From sequence record PZ496580.1: a stretch of 64,000 bases of DNA; one strand, 5' to 3'. A model generated the notes under the pieces. The model was not told the DNA's origin. It made no database searches and saw only the letters and a list, made by a program, of their open reading frames with translations. Shown here in pieces: positions 52,447 to 57,471 of the stretch. Both the position numbers and the translations under genes were made by a program. How positions within the stretch are numbered: the first letter of the stretch is position 1; every line of letters begins with the position of its first letter. This DNA comes from a phage.

Positions 52447-52614
52447 TCACTTTTTAACACAAAAGAACTTAGTATTTCTGTTTATTTCGTTATCCTGTTG
52501 CAATTCCTGCACGGCTTCAAAACAACTTTGATGTGATGAAAACTCCACGCTGGTAACAGTTCCTTTATTATATGATCCTACGCTAACGGAAAGCAATAAC
52601 CATATTGTAGCCAT
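52447..52614 (-). CDS. Small hydrophobic-N-terminus protein (55 aa), tandem paralog
   Basis: MATIWLLLSVSVGSYNKG...; TAATG coupling. Confidence 0.4.
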   Translation of the reverse strand: MATIWLLLSVSVGSYNKGTVTSVEFSSHQSCFEAVQELQQDNEINRNTKFFCVKK

Positions 52615-52787
52615 TAGTTCACCTTCTGCTTTTCAATGCAATACAGATTCATAAAGCGTTTATTGTCTTCGCGGATAATCTCGCGAGCTTTAACGCAATC
52701 CTGCTTTGTTGCAAATTCAATGCTTGACATATTTCCGTAATTATACATTGAATTGCTTATTGCAATCAATAACCATACAGTAGCCAT
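52614..52787 (-). CDS. Small hydrophobic-N-terminus protein (57 aa), tandem paralog
   Basis: MATVWLLIAISNSMYNYG...; TAATG coupling. Confidence 0.4.
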   Translation of the reverse strand: MATVWLLIAISNSMYNYGNMSSIEFATKQDCVKAREIIREDNKRFMNLYCIEKQKVN

Positions 52788-52954
52788 TATCCGACAACCT
52801 CAAAACATTTATCATCAGGAAGAATAGCCCATTCTACGCCGTATTCATCCTCAACGTAGTAGCAAGTCCCATCATGTCGAGCATCATATACATCACCGAC
52901 AACAAAGCTATCAGCTAGTTCAAAATCTACAGCAACACATTTTAATTTGGTCAT
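52787..52954 (-). CDS. Hypothetical protein (55 aa)
   Basis: MTKLKCVAVDF...; SD GAGGAT; first gene behind promoter cassette 52986-53015. Confidence 0.4.
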   Translation of the reverse strand: MTKLKCVAVDFELADSFVVGDVYDARHDGTCYYVEDEYGVEWAILPDDKCFEVVG

Positions 52955-52985
52955 AATAAAATCCTCACTTGTTTTTGATGGTTGA

Positions 52986-53015
52986 ATTATAGCGGGGATT
53001 TCTCCCCGCGTCAAC
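52986..53015 (-). promoter_or_regulatory. Early promoter cassette between nrdA and nrdB
   Basis: GTTGAC-GCGGGGAGAAATCCCCGC-TATAAT. Confidence 0.6.
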
Positions 53016-53022
53016 ACTTATT

Positions 53023-55266
53023 TTACAGTTTACAAGATGAACATTCACTAGAGTCTTCCGTACCATCAGCACCATCACGCACGTTAGCGTAATACAGTGT
53101 CTTGAGGCCGTAATATTGAGCAAACAACATATCATCTAATACATCAGCAATATCGACTTTACCAGTCTTATAAGTGCTTGGATCATAGGATGTGTTGGAA
53201 CTAATCGCCTGATCTACAAACTTCTGCATGATCGCTGCCAGTGTCAGATAAGGCTTGTTACCTTTCTTGATCAGTGTCCAAAGCAGGTCAATAACATCAG
53301 CATTATTCTCTACGTTCGGAATAACCTGATTAAATTGCCCTTCTTTCGATCCTTTAACCGATACAATCCCGCGAGGCGGTTCAATACCGTTTGTGCTGTT
53401 AGATACCTGAGAAGACGACTCACAAGGCATCAGAGCCGAAAGCGTACTGTTACGAATGCCATATTTTTTCAGGTCTTCGCGCAGTTCCTCCCAATCCATC
53501 TCATACACCGGATCAACCAGTTCATCTACTGTCTTTTTGTACCAGTCGATAGGAAGTTCACCGCGACCATAACGTGTTTCGTGCATCAGTTCGCAAGCAC
53601 CCTTCTCTTTAGCCAGTTGCACACTAGCCTTAATCAGAGCATATTGCAAGCGTTCAAACGTTTTATGCGTAAACTCGTTAGCGTCTTCATATGTGAAGAA
53701 ATTATCCGCGAGATACGATGCAAAGTTAGTCACACCAACACCCAGAGATCGACGTTTTTTGGCTGTCAGAGCTTGTTCTACAGGATAATCCTGGTAATCT
53801 AACAAGTTGTCAAGTGCACGCACCATAACCATAGCAATGCGTTCTACTTCTTCCATATTTTCGATATCGAAATTACCTAAAACATATGCTGCCAAAGTAC
53901 ATAGGCTGATCTCTGAATCATCACGACCCATCGGTTTAGTAGGCAGTGCAATTTCACAACACAGGTTAGATTGTTTAATCGGTGCTACATTACGAATAAA
54001 CGCCCCGTGATTGTTCATGTTGTCTGTGAACGCTGGATAGATTCGACCAGTGTTAAAACGTTCAATTGCCACCGCTAAAAACAGGTCTTCGGCTTTAACA
54101 CGAGTTTTACGAACACTCGGATCTTTTTCCAGTTTTTCGTAAAGCTGGCGGAAACCTTCCTCATCTCGGAAGTACAGATCCCACAACAAGCCACCTGCAA
54201 CATCTGGACTAAACAGAGTAATGTAATCCCGTTTAAGGAATCGCTCTACCATCAGGTTATTAATCTGTACGCCGTAATCAAGATGGCGAATGCGGTTATC
54301 TTCTACCCCTTTGTTGTTCTTCAACACAATAAGACTTTCAAACTCTAAATGCCACATTGGGTAATAGAGAGTCGCCGCCCCGCCACGAATACCGCCTTGT
54401 GAGCATGACTTAACGGCAGTCTGAAAATGTTTCCAGAATGGGATAACGCCAGTATGACGAACTTCACCATGCCCGATCTTAGATCCTTCCGCGCGAATCA
54501 TGCCAGCGTTGATACCGATGCCAGCACGCTTACTAATATACTTGATGATTGCATTTGCTGTTTCGTTGATGCCCTGCAATGAGTCATCAGATTCGATCAC
54601 CACACACGAACTAAATTGGCGTGTTGGAGTACGCACACCAGCCATAATCGGAGTAGGAAGAGAAATTTGCTTATTAGCAACAGCATTATAAAAATCAATC
54701 ACATGTTCAAGTCGATTTTCTGTCTCTTCTTGATGTAAACACATACCGATCAGCATATACGCAAATTGCGGTGTTTCGATGATTTTCTTAGTGCTGCGAT
54801 CCTGAACAAGATATTTCTCTTTTAATTGCATCGCACCAGCATAGGTCATTTTAAAATCAAGTTTATGATCGATGAATTTCTCCAGATATTCCACTTCTTC
54901 ACGGGAATACTTTTGCAGAATTTCACGATCATATTTTCCGGTTGCAATATTACGCTCAATGTGGCTATAAAAATCAATAGGTTGGAATTGACCGTATACT
55001 GATTTACGAAGCGCGAACATTGCAAGGTTACTTGCTACATATTGATAATCTGGTGTTTCTACAGTAATGTTATCTGCTGCGACCTTAATCAATACTTTCT
55101 GGATATCATTGGTAGACATACCTTCTGTCAGAAGTGGTTCAACCATATCAAACAATTCATATGGATCAACGTTATGACCTTCGGCTGCCGCTTCCAGAAT
55201 TTTCATTACTTTTTCTTTTTCAAACGGAACAGTCAGACCGGAAGACTTAACAACATTTTTAATCAT
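53023..55266 (-). CDS. nrdA: Ribonucleotide reductase alpha subunit (NrdA)
   Basis: 747 aa; C-terminal CSSCKL; class Ia R1 similarity. Confidence 0.95.
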   Translation of the reverse strand: MIKNVVKSSGLTVPFEKEKVMKILEAAAEGHNVDPYELFDMVEPLLTEGMSTNDIQKVLIKVAADNITVETPDYQYVASNLAMFALRKSVYGQFQPIDFYSHIERNIATGKYDREILQKYSREEVEYLEKFIDHKLDFKMTYAGAMQLKEKYLVQDRSTKKIIETPQFAYMLIGMCLHQEETENRLEHVIDFYNAVANKQISLPTPIMAGVRTPTRQFSSCVVIESDDSLQGINETANAIIKYISKRAGIGINAGMIRAEGSKIGHGEVRHTGVIPFWKHFQTAVKSCSQGGIRGGAATLYYPMWHLEFESLIVLKNNKGVEDNRIRHLDYGVQINNLMVERFLKRDYITLFSPDVAGGLLWDLYFRDEEGFRQLYEKLEKDPSVRKTRVKAEDLFLAVAIERFNTGRIYPAFTDNMNNHGAFIRNVAPIKQSNLCCEIALPTKPMGRDDSEISLCTLAAYVLGNFDIENMEEVERIAMVMVRALDNLLDYQDYPVEQALTAKKRRSLGVGVTNFASYLADNFFTYEDANEFTHKTFERLQYALIKASVQLAKEKGACELMHETRYGRGELPIDWYKKTVDELVDPVYEMDWEELREDLKKYGIRNSTLSALMPCESSSQVSNSTNGIEPPRGIVSVKGSKEGQFNQVIPNVENNADVIDLLWTLIKKGNKPYLTLAAIMQKFVDQAISSNTSYDPSTYKTGKVDIADVLDDMLFAQYYGLKTLYYANVRDGADGTEDSSECSSCKL

Positions 55267-55334
55267 ATTACCTCACTTCATATTTTAGCAGGAACAAGTT
55301 TATCCTCCATAACGGGGGCTTTCGCCCCCTTTGT

Positions 55335-56567
55335 TTATACTGCCATTTGAGCGGTGATTGCTGGATGGCTTTGATAGTTGTGAATTTTAAAGTCTTTCGG
55401 AGTCTTTGTCAATACCTCATCTAAAGATTTAAATTCCGGCAACTCGATTGTTGGTTTATCAAACGGAACACGGCTTAACTGTTCCATAACTTGATCAAAA
55501 TGGTTTTTGTAAATGTGAGTATCTCCACCAGAGAAAATCAGTTCTCCTACCTCAAGATCACACATTTTCGCTATGATGTGAGTTAACAGCGCATAGCTGG
55601 CAACATTAAAGGGCAAGCCCAAAAAGCTGTCTACGCTTCGCTGAAACCACATACAAGACAGTTTACCTTCATTGACATAGAATTGTACGAACGGATGACA
55701 TACACCCAATACAGCATTATGTGTTCCTTGTACGTTCCATGAGTCAATGATGATACGTCGATCCGTTGGATTGTTTTTAATTTGTTCAATCACGTTTTGT
55801 AACTGGTCTTCCCAAATCTTCGGGCGATAGACATATTCTTCATCGTCTTTAGTGCTCGATGTGTCTACGTCCATACTAGCAAAGATCGTGGTATCTGGCG
55901 CTAAAATATCCCCGCCCAGATAATCACTATCAAGCAGATAACCGAAATAACCATCATCTACCCATTCCTGGAATCCCCACAAGCAATATGCATCATTAAC
56001 AAAATTAGATTGAGTCTTCCAGTGGTCTGCTACTAAGAATAGATTATATTCAGAATCAAACTCTTCATAACGCATACCACGCCAGATAGCACATAAACGG
56101 TCTTCTGTTTCATTGGTTGGCGTAAAGTCTTCTACCCACGGGTGCTTAAATGTATGTGTATATTTGCTCTTAACGCGCTTAATTTTGATTTCACCGTGTG
56201 GATGAATCGGTTTGCGTCGCCACGCCATACCATACATATTGCCGACATTATAACCATTGAATCGCAAAGGATTCTTTTCTTTCATATCAAGACAGTTGCC
56301 GCGCCAAATGTCGAAGGCTTCTTCGTCAAACTGACCGCGTGTAATTTCCTGTAAGCGACGGCGGTCAAGTGATCCCTCCATAAACCATAGCAACTCGCCA
56401 ATTACAGAGGCTGTAGCCATCTTTTTAGTGGTCAGTAATGGGAAACCCTTGTTTAAATCGATTCGCATCTCTGCGCCGAATTTAGAGAGCGTACCTACCC
56501 CCGTGCGGTCTTCACGAGGCCAGCCATTATCAAGAACATCACGCAACAGTTTCAAATATTCTTTCAT
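55335..56567 (-). CDS. td: Thymidylate synthase with large small-domain insertion
   Basis: Catalytic VLGVCHPFVQFYV, dUMP-specific FLGLPFNVASY, C-terminal PAITAQMAV; about 135 extra residues between YGMAWRR and DQLQNVIEQ; ORF continuous. Confidence 0.85.
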   Translation of the reverse strand: MKEYLKLLRDVLDNGWPREDRTGVGTLSKFGAEMRIDLNKGFPLLTTKKMATASVIGELLWFMEGSLDRRRLQEITRGQFDEEAFDIWRGNCLDMKEKNPLRFNGYNVGNMYGMAWRRKPIHPHGEIKIKRVKSKYTHTFKHPWVEDFTPTNETEDRLCAIWRGMRYEEFDSEYNLFLVADHWKTQSNFVNDAYCLWGFQEWVDDGYFGYLLDSDYLGGDILAPDTTIFASMDVDTSSTKDDEEYVYRPKIWEDQLQNVIEQIKNNPTDRRIIIDSWNVQGTHNAVLGVCHPFVQFYVNEGKLSCMWFQRSVDSFLGLPFNVASYALLTHIIAKMCDLEVGELIFSGGDTHIYKNHFDQVMEQLSRVPFDKPTIELPEFKSLDEVLTKTPKDFKIHNYQSHPAITAQMAV

Positions 56568-56808
56568 CCCACATCACCTTTTTCTTGTTGATTGCTTTCT
56601 TACGCAGTTTTGCTACTGTCTCGTCAATATTGATAAAGACAACGCCCGGATCGAATACAGTAACAGGTCTTGAAATATCGCTATTTTCCTGTACTGGAAG
56701 CCATGATGCTTTAGCTTCATCATAGAGATATTGTAAACCGTAATAATCTACGGCTACTGCGTAGTTTTCACTGGTAGCTGACCATAATTGAATAATGGTT
56801 ATTTTCAT
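56539..56808 (-). CDS. Hypothetical protein (89 aa)
   Basis: ORF between frd and td; start at MKITII. Confidence 0.4.
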   Translation of the reverse strand: MKITIIQLWSATSENYAVAVDYYGLQYLYDEAKASWLPVQENSDISRPVTVFDPGVVFINIDETVAKLRKKAINKKKVMWDERIFETVA

Positions 56809-56901
56809 TATTGTTCCCGTCCACAATGTAAACACCGACTACCAGCAAACATCAAAGATTCACCACAATGTTTGCACTCATAATCTGTCAGAATTTTCAT
56901 G

Positions 56902-57471
56902 TTACGCCTTCTTACGTTCCAAAATTTGCTCACTGATCAGGTAATCATCAAGGAAGTAATTATGTTCTTCTTTTGTTGCAAAGTCAAAATATAATTCCTG
57001 AATCATTTCCTTAGAGATACCAACATCATATTCGAACGGATCGTTGATTCCTGAACGTTGAACATACGTTAACACAATACGGTCCGCAAAGTCAACCGCT
57101 TTTTCAATCAGGGAAGGTCCGCCGATAACACTTACCAAACCTTGCGTTTTCTCTAGGGCTTTTAACAGATCCTTCAATTCAATTCCAGTGTACACATCTG
57201 GTTGGTCGCCGTTTTTTGTTTTCGGTTCTGGCTTGCTGGTATCGGTACTAACAACCACATTCAAACGTCCCCAAAGTGCTTTAGGCAGACTTTCAAAGGT
57301 ATTACGTCCCATTACTACCGCAGCAAAATCAACCTCGCCAATAGTGCGAATTTTAAAGTTTTCCATATCCTTTTTGATTGGACGACCCCACGGTAAACCG
57401 CCTTTAAAACCAAACGCCCAATTTTCATCTGACATTTTAGTGTCACCAATCGCAAATACACATTGAATCAT
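56902..57471 (-). CDS. frd: Dihydrofolate reductase
   Basis: FGFKGGLPWGRP ... VIGGPSL motifs; similarity to T4 Frd. Confidence 0.85.
   Translation of the reverse strand: MIQCVFAIGDTKMSDENWAFGFKGGLPWGRPIKKDMENFKIRTIGEVDFAAVVMGRNTFESLPKALWGRLNVVVSTDTSKPEPKTKNGDQPDVYTGIELKDLLKALEKTQGLVSVIGGPSLIEKAVDFADRIVLTYVQRSGINDPFEYDVGISKEMIQELYFDFATKEEHNYFLDDYLISEQILERKKA

What the first reader, a model, noticed from the sequence alone, without database searches (positions are those of the whole stretch)
55880..56285. Thymidylate synthase carries a roughly 135 aa in-frame insertion and lacks the T4-type intron
The td ORF is continuous (410 aa) with all catalytic landmarks, but has about 135 extra residues between the YGMAWRR and DQLQNVIEQ segments, which are adjacent in E. 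coli ThyA. The insert is Trp/Tyr/Asp-rich and has no intein termini. T4 td is interrupted by a group I intron with a homing endonuclease; here td and nrdB are uninterrupted and the nrdA-nrdB interval holds three small coupled ORFs instead. The insertion may add a partner-binding module or alter substrate handling; adjacency to frd argues for genuine TS activity.
Basis: partly seen in the sequence, partly recalled or inferred. Interest (0 to 1): 0.5.

Follow-up and report, generated by a model that had tools for sequence, protein, structure and literature searches.

The report
Decayed homing-endonuclease domain inside thymidylate synthase
The extra 135 residues in this RB49-like phage's thymidylate synthase are a folded, degenerate copy of a phage homing-endonuclease domain, sitting unspliced in a surface loop of an apparently intact enzyme; it is one member of a large family of such nested enzymes that I did not find described in the searchable literature.

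Summary
The td ORF (55335-56567, minus strand, 410 aa) is continuous, keeps 20 of 21 key ThyA residues, and has one contiguous 135-aa block (residues 119-253, nt 55809-56213) where E. coli ThyA has a 9-residue hairpin. It is not an intron, not an intein, and hides no out-of-frame gene.

The block is homologous to the "IPA-HNH" domain of free-standing phage homing-endonuclease genes such as ICP1 gp59. AlphaFold2 models it confidently as a separate domain on a two-stranded beta stalk.

At least 150 clusters of phage and metagenomic TS proteins (392-909 aa) carry such an insert. It sits in one of the two variable TS loops. Related phages differ by its presence or absence.

Long inserts look like complete endonucleases and keep the family's invariant residues. 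The window's short form has lost them, lost both flanking DNA-binding modules, and is strongly acidic (net -13). It is present in all 59 Krischvirus records found and is under purifying selection (dN/dS about 0.2).

Best reading: a fossil of an in-frame, non-spliced homing element, now a passenger or co-opted domain of an active TS. No description was found in the searchable literature.

The parts
55335..56567 (-). td gene: thymidylate synthase with a nested domain, 410 aa plus stop
   Evidence: ORF. PF00303 at 284 bits. TIGR03284 at 282.7 bits against a cutoff of 108. 97-98% nt identity to td of RB49 and 58 other Krischvirus records.
56214..56567 (-). TS core, N-terminal part (residues 1-118), ending in YGMAWRR
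   Evidence: Aligns to E. coli ThyA residues 1 to about 100. R21, K48, E58, W88 and Y112 are conserved.
55809..56213 (-). In-frame insert, residues 119-253 (135 aa): a degenerate IPA-HNH homing-endonuclease domain on a beta stalk
   Evidence: One contiguous gap in E. coli ThyA. tblastn to same-site TS inserts of KP13-7 (6e-12) and Vibrio phage D148 (4e-6). Leave-out HMM tests give 1.6e-15 and 1e-6; hhalign gives 99.6% and 97.6%. dN/dS is 0.12-0.46. All other frames are closed.
56178..56213 (-). Outgoing stalk strand (residues 119-130, KPIHPHGEIKIK)
   Evidence: AF2 strand E119-130, pLDDT above 90. Basic segment.
55860..56120 (-). Core of the IPA-HNH-like domain (residues about 150-236): helices 153-169, 181-193 and 199-204, strands 210-213 and 228-231
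55809..55835 (-). Returning stalk strand (residues 245-253, YVYRPKIWE)
   Evidence: AF2 strand E245-253. YRPKI is conserved among insert-bearing TSs.
55338..55808 (-). TS core, C-terminal part (residues 254-410), with the catalytic Cys290
   Evidence: Aligns to E. coli 110-264. R270, R271, C290, H291, R310, S311, D313, N321, H351 and Y353 are present. dN/dS is about 0-0.06.

Best explanation
The window comes from an RB49-like T4-type coliphage (genus Krischvirus). Its td gene encodes a thymidylate synthase that is very probably active.

The hairpin corresponding to E. coli residues 101-109 is extended into a long two-stranded beta stalk. At the tip of the stalk sits a domain of about 90 residues. 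This domain descends from the putative nuclease domain of IPA-HNH homing endonucleases, the family of free-standing phage genes typified by Vibrio phage ICP1 gp59.

Inferred history:
1. An IPA-HNH endonuclease gene became inserted in frame into a permissive TS surface loop. There it is translated as part of TS and needs no RNA or protein splicing.
2. Long versions in other phages still look like complete endonucleases and show signs of recent gain or loss.
3. In the Krischvirus lineage the element is present in every record found. It lost its N-terminal beta module and its C-terminal DNA-binding module, lost the residues invariant in the family, and became strongly acidic.

It most likely no longer cuts or binds DNA. 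It persists as a folded passenger, or possibly co-opted, domain that selection keeps foldable.

Shown here: the insert, its homology, its predicted fold, the intact TS residues, the selection regime, and its distribution. Inferred: the order of events, loss of nuclease activity, and TS activity.
For: - Identity and continuity of the ORF.
- Single contiguous insert at one loop.
- Homology chain, with leave-out tests. An HMM of long and medium TS inserts hits the window insert at E=1.6e-15. An HMM of free-standing proteins only hits it at E=1e-6. hhalign gives short vs long 99.6%, short vs free-standing 97.6%, long vs free-standing 99.9%.
- ICP1 gp59 hits the domain HMM at 2.4e-25 and the full-length family HMM at 4.5e-53. 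The family was defined by Barth et al. 2023, PMC10448857.
- The KP13-7 insert hits 1023 phage records, mostly free-standing 'HNH endonuclease' genes including ICP1.
- Family members carry AP2 (18 of 121) or I-HmuI NUMOD-like (7 of 121) DNA-binding domains.
- Decay. R-C-Y, D-K-D, Y, C and N are kept in 76-100% of long and medium inserts, but mostly lost in the 9 short ones: 0% for R-C-Y, Y and C, 22-44% for the rest; in the window insert all are replaced except the two Asp of D-K-D. Net charge is -13 against +3 to +18.
- Constraint: dN/dS is 0.12-0.46 in the insert and about 0-0.13 in the core. The insert is present in all 59 Krischvirus records and in more distant T4-like contigs in the same frd-td-nrdA context.
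- Mobility of relatives. P0142 and P0195 are TS genes of syntenic phage contigs, 92% identical in the core, and differ by an insert of about 850 nt. The P0132 insert is 67-72% identical to inserts whose cores are only 46-55% identical. The domain occurs in two different TS loops.
- Spread: all 150 best representatives in the exhaustive search are insert-bearing.
- TS residues are intact.
Against: - No biochemical data exist for TS activity, for absence of splicing, or for nuclease activity of any IPA-HNH protein, nested or free.
- The full-length free-standing family HMM does not detect the window insert. Only domain-trimmed profiles do.
- dN/dS of about 0.2 and a well-packed, confidently oriented domain fit an acquired function as well as they fit a passive passenger.
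- The core tree is a rough neighbour-joining tree on a biased sample. Vertical descent of one old fusion, plus transfer of whole td genes, explains most of the distribution. The mobility evidence comes from a few pairs.
Confidence: 0.72

Rival explanations
1. Co-opted module. The endonuclease-derived domain now has a job of its own in Krischvirus TS. Candidates are an acidic, aromatic-rich protein-binding surface (tethering TS to other nucleotide-synthesis or replication proteins), a nucleic-acid mimic, or a regulator of TS. The origin would be the same as in the best explanation, but the present state would differ.
For: Purifying selection on the insert (dN/dS about 0.2). It is retained in all 59 Krischvirus records and in T4-like relatives down to 47% identity. 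The motifs DAYCLWGFQEWVD and GGDI(L/I)APDT are conserved among the Krischvirus-like short forms. The charge shift to -13 looks directional. High pTM suggests a fixed orientation on the core.
Against: No partner or activity is known. Selection against misfolding of an essential enzyme could give the same dN/dS. The insert evolves 5-10 times faster than the core at non-synonymous sites. The short forms P0141 and P0144 are not acidic (+5, +6), so the charge is not a shared property.
Confidence: 0.22
2. Still-active mobile element. The Krischvirus TS fusion protein is itself a working homing endonuclease that cuts insert-less td alleles of co-infecting phages.
For: Long-form relatives keep the family's invariant residues and show presence/absence differences between related phages.
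Against: In the window's insert the invariant R-C-Y, the Lys of D-K-D, and the Y, C and N positions are all replaced. Both flanking DNA-binding modules are absent. Net charge is -13. The insert is present in every Krischvirus record found, so no empty target allele is seen.
Confidence: 0.04
3. Intein, group I or II intron, or a ShiLan-type insertion hiding an out-of-frame endonuclease gene. In each case the mature TS would lack the block, or the block would code in another frame.
For: T4 td has an intron. Phage ThyX genes have inteins. An unspliced insertion with a hidden HNH gene exists in a mycobacteriophage methylase (PMC11855218).
Against: No Rfam match at E<=10. No Hint or intein Pfam hit in this protein or any relative. 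The junctions are R118|K119 and E253|D254, with no Cys/Ser start and no His-Asn + Cys/Ser/Thr end. The in-frame translation is a conserved, confidently folded domain with dN/dS below 1. In-frame 4-codon indels occur among strains. The longest alternative-frame ORF is 44 codons.
Confidence: 0.01
4. The insert changes the chemistry or substrate of the enzyme, for example turning td into the missing pyrimidine-modifying enzyme of Krischvirus phages whose DNA carries modified cytosines.
For: PMC13390438 reports that Krischvirus SAP has modified cytosines. It also reports that no 5-hmdCMP synthase homologue is known in the genus. td is a member of the TS superfamily in these genomes.
Against: Asn321 (Asn in dUMP enzymes, Asp in dCMP enzymes) and 20 of 21 TS residues are canonical. 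The insert sits at the tip of a surface hairpin. The unmodified phage TB34 and the modified phage SAP gave the same score and identity to the window td. The same architecture occurs in many unrelated phages.
Confidence: 0.02

Closest known systems
IPA-HNH homing endonuclease genes (ICP1 gp59, gp114-115 fusion (also written gp115-gp116), gp209; Barth et al. 2023, PMC10448857)
   Same: The insert domain is homologous to the N-terminal divergent HNH-like domain of this family. Long TS inserts also share the upstream beta module. Like these genes, the inserts are associated with nucleotide-metabolism and replication genes.
   Different: Those are free-standing genes with a C-terminal AP2 or NUMOD-like DNA-binding domain. 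Here the domain is translated inside another enzyme, lacks DNA-binding modules, and has lost the family's invariant residues. The paper does not mention thymidylate synthase or nested copies.
ShiLan domain: unspliced homing insertion in a mycobacteriophage DNA methylase (Arsenault et al. 2025, PMC11855218)
   Same: An insertion that is read through in frame with its host gene. It has no intein or intron features, an HNH connection, is predicted to loop out of the host protein, and is patchily distributed.
   Different: In ShiLan the HNH endonuclease is encoded in a different reading frame and the in-frame product is an unstructured hairpin. Here the in-frame product is itself the endonuclease-type domain, and the other frames are closed.
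T4 td group I intron with I-TevI, and inteins carrying HNH or LAGLIDADG endonucleases
   Same: Selfish endonuclease elements living inside essential nucleotide-metabolism genes of phages, including td.
   Different: Those elements remove themselves by RNA or protein splicing. This one has no splicing apparatus and remains in the mature protein. The T4 intron site lies roughly 55-60 residues further downstream, by my own estimate from the T4 TS alignment range.
Variable 'small domain' inserts of ThyA (50 aa in L. casei; 12 and 8 aa in human TS; from general knowledge of TS structures)
   Same: The same two surface loops tolerate insertions without loss of catalysis. The window's block is in the second loop. 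About 13 metagenomic relatives have it in the first loop.
   Different: Those inserts are short, lineage-specific loops or helices with no relation to mobile-element proteins.

Membership tests
Thymidylate synthase ThyA (PF00303 / TIGR03284) | Family HMM match above the curated cutoff | tested here: met
   PF00303 at 284 bits against 24.3. TIGR03284 at 282.7 against 108.35. The match is split in two by the insert.
Thymidylate synthase ThyA (PF00303 / TIGR03284) | Catalytic Cys, phosphate-binding arginines, Tyr/His/Asp network, and Asn at the dUMP-specificity position | tested here: met
   20 of 21 residues checked are identical to E. coli: R21, K48, E58, Y112, R270, R271, C290, H291, R310, S311, D313, N321, H351, Y353 and others. 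Only the W83 equivalent differs.
Thymidylate synthase ThyA (PF00303 / TIGR03284) | dUMP to dTMP activity | not testable with these tools
   Needs an enzyme assay or thyA complementation.
IPA-HNH homing endonucleases (Barth et al. 2023) | Divergent HNH-like domain homologous to that of ICP1 gp59 | tested here: met
   Leave-out HMM tests give E=1e-6 (free-standing only) and 1.6e-15 (long TS inserts only). hhalign gives 97.6% and 99.6%. gp59 hits the domain HMM at 2.4e-25.
IPA-HNH homing endonucleases (Barth et al. 2023) | Family-invariant residues (M..RCY, LDKD, Y, TC, N) | tested here: not met
   The window has gaps or substitutions at R, C, Y, K (to S), Y (to L), C (to T) and N (to D). Across the 9 short forms R-C-Y, Y and C are kept in 0% and K, N and the two Asp in 22-44%, against 76-100% in long and medium forms.
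IPA-HNH homing endonucleases (Barth et al. 2023) | Associated AP2 or other DNA-binding domain | tested here: not met
   No Pfam hit in the insert. The insert ends about 15 residues after the domain. Long relatives have extra N- and C-terminal modules.
IPA-HNH homing endonucleases (Barth et al. 2023) | Free-standing gene with variable presence among close relatives | tested here: not met
   The domain is nested in td and present in all 59 Krischvirus records. Presence/absence is seen only for long-form relatives.
IPA-HNH homing endonucleases (Barth et al. 2023) | Site-specific DNA cleavage | not testable with these tools
   Needs a nuclease assay. I found no experimental demonstration of it for the family in the passages of PMC10448857 I read.
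HNH / His-Me finger superfamily | beta-beta-alpha-metal fold with a catalytic His | tested here: inconclusive
Intein | Hint splicing blocks: N-terminal Cys/Ser, C-terminal His-Asn followed by Cys/Ser/Thr | tested here: not met
   The junctions are WRR|KPIH and KIWE|DQLQ. No intein Pfam family is found in this protein or in 69 relatives.
Group I / group II intron | Ribozyme core detectable by covariance model, and interruption of the reading frame | tested here: not met
   No Rfam hit at E<=10 in 55000-57000, nor at gathering score in the whole window. The frame is open, dN/dS is below 1, and indels are in multiples of three.
ShiLan-type insertion with a hidden out-of-frame HNH | Long ORF in an alternative frame of the insert encoding an endonuclease | tested here: not met
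   The longest open stretch in the five other frames is 44 codons.

The most novel reading that the evidence does not exclude
The long-form relatives may be an unrecognised kind of selfish element. It would be a homing endonuclease that spreads as an unspliced, in-frame domain nested in permissive surface loops of thymidylate synthase. It has entered TS at least twice, at two different loops, and would be expressed as a TS-endonuclease chimera. The Krischvirus insert would then be its domesticated remnant, kept by selection for a new role, for example an acidic partner-binding or nucleic-acid-mimicking surface on TS.
Probability: 0.3. Interest if true: 0.8.

Novelty: new variant of a known kind. 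Interest (0 to 1): 0.62.

Why it matters
Homing endonucleases are thought to survive inside essential genes only when an intron or intein removes them. Otherwise they sit between genes.

Here an endonuclease-type domain is simply left in the protein, in the loops of thymidylate synthase already known to tolerate insertions. The arrangement is common: at least 150 clusters at 50% identity. It spans the stages of a homing-endonuclease life cycle, from complete-looking copies with presence/absence differences to the decayed copy shared by all RB49-like coliphages found.

This gives three things:
- A directly testable system for splicing-free homing. Purify a long-form TS and test it on an empty td allele.
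- A natural example of domain insertion into a well-studied enzyme.
- A correction for annotation. Some of these TS proteins are labelled 'HNH endonuclease' or 'hypothetical'.

For RB49-like phages used in therapy and genetics, it explains an odd 48-kDa TS.

Tried and rejected
- Sequence searches with the insert alone against Pfam, NCBIfam and PDB gave nothing. PHROGs gave only a weak 'HNH endonuclease' hint (E 0.59).
- The first large homologue search with the insert alone found no candidates, although a 99%-identical protein is in that database (P0125). This looks like a limit of the word index, and it cost one capped search.
- The full-length HMM of free-standing proteins did not detect the window insert. 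Domain-trimmed, leave-out profiles were needed.
- Intron: rejected by Rfam at lax and at curated thresholds.
- Intein: rejected by the junction residues and the absence of Hint domains.
- Hidden out-of-frame gene: rejected.
- L. casei-type small-domain insert: I first assumed the same site. The alignment shows the window's block is in the second variable loop, not the L. casei loop.
- CapR zinc-finger DNA-binding domain: considered because of the conserved cysteines. The match is to the IPA-HNH domain of gp59, not to CapR-bearing T5orf172 genes. I did not test CapR directly.
Model coordinates are not exposed, so I could not measure how the insert sits relative to the active site or the dimer interface.
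- Literature searches for a nested endonuclease domain in TS found nothing. The 2002 RB49 genome paper is not held.

Full report
**1. What is in the window**

ORF 55335-56567 on the minus strand encodes a 410-aa protein. The DNA is 97-98% identical to td of RB49 and 58 other Krischvirus phages, all of which have the full-length gene. The window therefore comes from an RB49-like T4-type coliphage.

Pfam's thymidylate synthase model matches strongly, but in two pieces. E. coli ThyA aligns to residues 1-82 and 254-410. A multiple alignment shows one contiguous 135-residue block, residues 119-253 (nt 55809-56213). It lies between YGMAWRR and DQLQNV, where E. coli has only PTPDGRHI.

Its coordinates (55880-56285, residues 95-230) are about 70 nt too far upstream. 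The block is enriched in Trp, Tyr and Asp.

Twenty of 21 catalytic or ligand-binding ThyA residues are canonical. They include Cys290 and Asn321, the position that distinguishes dUMP from dCMP enzymes.

**2. What it is not**

- No RNA family matches td at E<=10, and none reaches gathering score anywhere in the window. That includes group I and II introns.
- The junctions (R118|K119, E253|D254) have no intein signature. No Hint or intein domain is found here or in relatives.
- All five alternative frames of the block are closed, with a longest run of 44 codons. It is therefore not like the ShiLan insertion, which hides an out-of-frame HNH gene (PMC11855218).
- Among Krischvirus strains the block differs by an in-frame 4-codon indel.
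- Its dN/dS is 0.12-0.46, against about 0-0.13 for the TS core. It is translated and constrained, but less tightly than the enzyme.

**3. What it is**

The block alone has no Pfam, NCBIfam or PDB sequence match. tblastn against phage genomes does find related blocks at the same loop of thymidylate synthases:
- jumbo Klebsiella phage KP13-7 (517 aa, E 6e-12);
- E. coli phage UE-S1;
- Vibrio phage D148 (477 aa, annotated 'HNH endonuclease', 4e-6);
- Bacillus phage Kioshi (548 aa).

It also finds small free-standing phage proteins annotated 'HNH endonuclease' or 'DNA-binding'. They share the motif W..M..RCY ... V..W..F.NF ... LDKD ... Y.P.TC.F ... N.

The free-standing family is large. There were 968 hits in one search, and the KP13-7 insert hits 1023 phage records. 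Members often carry AP2 or I-HmuI NUMOD-like DNA-binding domains.

Vibrio phage ICP1 gp59 matches the domain profile at 2.4e-25 and the full-length family profile at 4.5e-53. gp59 is the founding member of the 'IPA-HNH' homing endonuclease genes of Barth et al. 2023 (PMC10448857).

My first profile contained the window's own sequence, so I repeated the test with leave-out profiles:
- free-standing proteins only vs the window insert: E=1e-6;
- long and medium TS inserts only vs the window insert: E=1.6e-15;
- profile-profile probabilities: 97.6%, 99.6% and 99.9% along the chain.

**4. Structure**

AlphaFold2 with a 121-sequence alignment gives pLDDT 94.8 and pTM 0.93 for the whole protein. Two long strands (119-130 and 245-253) form a stalk. 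The stalk carries a helical domain that ends in a strand-strand-helix unit. The only soft spot (about residues 170-180) is where strains differ by the 4-codon indel.

Membership in the HNH superfamily is therefore plausible but not established here.

**5. A large nested family**

A profile search returned 69 TS clusters of 401-613 aa. Every one carries this domain in an insert. In the exhaustive search of 1.84 billion representatives, all 150 best hits are TS proteins of 392-909 aa covering the whole profile. Of the 139 new ones, 137 hit a domain profile built only from free-standing proteins.

Inserts come in three size classes: short (about 125-143 aa), medium (about 185-225 aa) and long (about 243-285 aa).

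Long inserts align with free-standing endonuclease genes over both the upstream beta module and the HNH-like domain.

The hosts examined are all phages:
- a T4-like contig with the same gp32...frd-td-nrdA-nrdB order;
- a 727-kb contig;
- jumbo and Bacillus phages.

**6. Signs that the long forms move, or recently moved**

- P0142 (552 aa) and P0195 (299 aa) lie in syntenic contigs that are 78-85% identical in DNA. Their TS cores are 92% identical. One has an insert of about 850 nt in place of a 27-residue loop. The 60 nt just downstream of the insert are unusually divergent: 65% against 85-93% elsewhere.
- The P0132 insert is 67-72% identical to inserts whose TS cores are only 46-55% identical to its own.
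- About 192 proteins have the domain in the loop at E. coli residues 97-111. About 13 have it in the other variable loop, residues 82-92; P0376 is a clear example. There were therefore at least two separate in-frame entries.

Against this, a rough core tree puts most insert-bearing TSs together. Much of the spread may be vertical descent, or transfer of whole td genes.

**7. State of the window's copy**

Residues that are nearly invariant in free-standing proteins are kept in 76-100% of long and medium inserts. In the nine short forms most are lost: R, C and Y of M..RCY, the Tyr before S-P and the Cys of T-C are kept in none, and Lys of LDKD, the final Asn and the two Asp in 22-44%. In the window all are replaced or deleted except the two Asp of LDKD.

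The short form lacks both flanking modules. Its net charge is -13, against +3 to +18 for long inserts. DNA binding and cleavage are therefore unlikely.

Scaffold residues are retained: the Trp and Phe core, L-D-x-D and P-D-T-x-I-F. The insert persists in T4-like relatives down to 47% identity. Insert identity falls faster than core identity, 31-50% against 52-70%.

**8. Interpretation**

The best-supported account is this. An IPA-HNH homing endonuclease became nested in frame in a permissive TS loop. It did not need splicing because the loop tolerates the extra domain. In the Krischvirus lineage it is now universal and has decayed to a folded, acidic remnant on an otherwise normal enzyme.

Whether the remnant is only tolerated or has been co-opted cannot be decided from sequence.

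The suggestion that it alters substrate handling is not supported by the residues checked. A recent report finds one Krischvirus with modified cytosines and no known pathway (PMC13390438). I note this only as a remote possibility.

**9. Novelty**

The free-standing family is described (PMC10448857). A conceptually similar unspliced insertion is known in a phage methylase (PMC11855218). I found no paper describing this domain nested in thymidylate synthase, in RB49 or elsewhere. The library lacks many subscription papers, including the 2002 RB49 genome paper.

I class it as a new variant of a known kind. Interest is moderate to high, mainly because of the family-wide pattern rather than the decayed copy in this window.

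Noticed in passing
L008 1010-1300 (phage JSE td); corresponds to window about 55520-55800: JSE-type td alleles carry a recombinant patch over TS residues about 258-350, with dS 0.8-1.1 against about 0.1 in the rest of the gene. Nine Krischvirus records share it at >=99%; the others are 72-78% identical. No donor is present in the phage collection. By my estimate the patch spans the region where T4 td has its intron.
   Followed up: partly
window 52447-53017 (-): The nrdA-nrdB interval holds three small ORFs with overlapping stops and starts. The first two (55 and 57 aa, phrog_5579) are tandem paralogues, 38% identical. The third (76 aa) is phrog_16302. All are of unknown function.
   Followed up: partly
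P0376, P0177, P0179, P0307, P0330, P0340, P0342, P0360, P0364, P0365, P0367, P0372 (metagenomic proteins): These thymidylate synthases carry the same endonuclease-type domain in the other variable loop (E. coli residues 82-92, before Tyr94), not in the loop used in the window. This implies an independent in-frame insertion.
   Followed up: partly
L015 1560-3218 versus L017 4371-5270: Two syntenic phage contigs have TS cores 92% identical, and one has an insert of about 850 nt in place of a 27-residue loop. The 60 nt just 3' of the insert are only 65% identical, against 85-93% elsewhere. This resembles a co-conversion or target-immunity tract.
   Followed up: partly
L002 2138-3571 (Vibrio phage D148); L004 811-2457 (Bacillus phage Kioshi): The D148 protein annotated 'HNH endonuclease' is a TS-family protein with the nested domain and non-canonical substitutions (R127 equivalent to Tyr, GGD to LKD). 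The Kioshi TS lacks the R21 and H147 equivalents. These may not be ordinary dTMP synthases.
   Followed up: no
window 56037-56048 (td residues 174-177, 'EYNL'; written SEYN or EYNL depending on gap placement): A 4-codon indel distinguishes RB49-type from JSE/Phi1-type inserts. It falls in the only low-confidence loop of the model (pLDDT about 72).
   Followed up: partly
window 55314-55329: A perfect GC-rich hairpin (GGGGGCTTTCGCCCCC) lies 5 nt after the td stop, between td and nrdA. It looks like a terminator, and one related genome annotates it as such.
   Followed up: no
window 56539-56835 (-): A conserved 98-aa ORF (phrog_16012, unknown function) lies between frd and td and overlaps the td start by 29 nt. 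So frd and td are not directly adjacent as they are in T4.
   Followed up: no
literature: PMC13390438: Krischvirus SAP is reported to have fully modified cytosines, while the 99.96%-identical TB34 has none. No known modification genes are present. Both gave the same identity and score to the window td.
   Followed up: no
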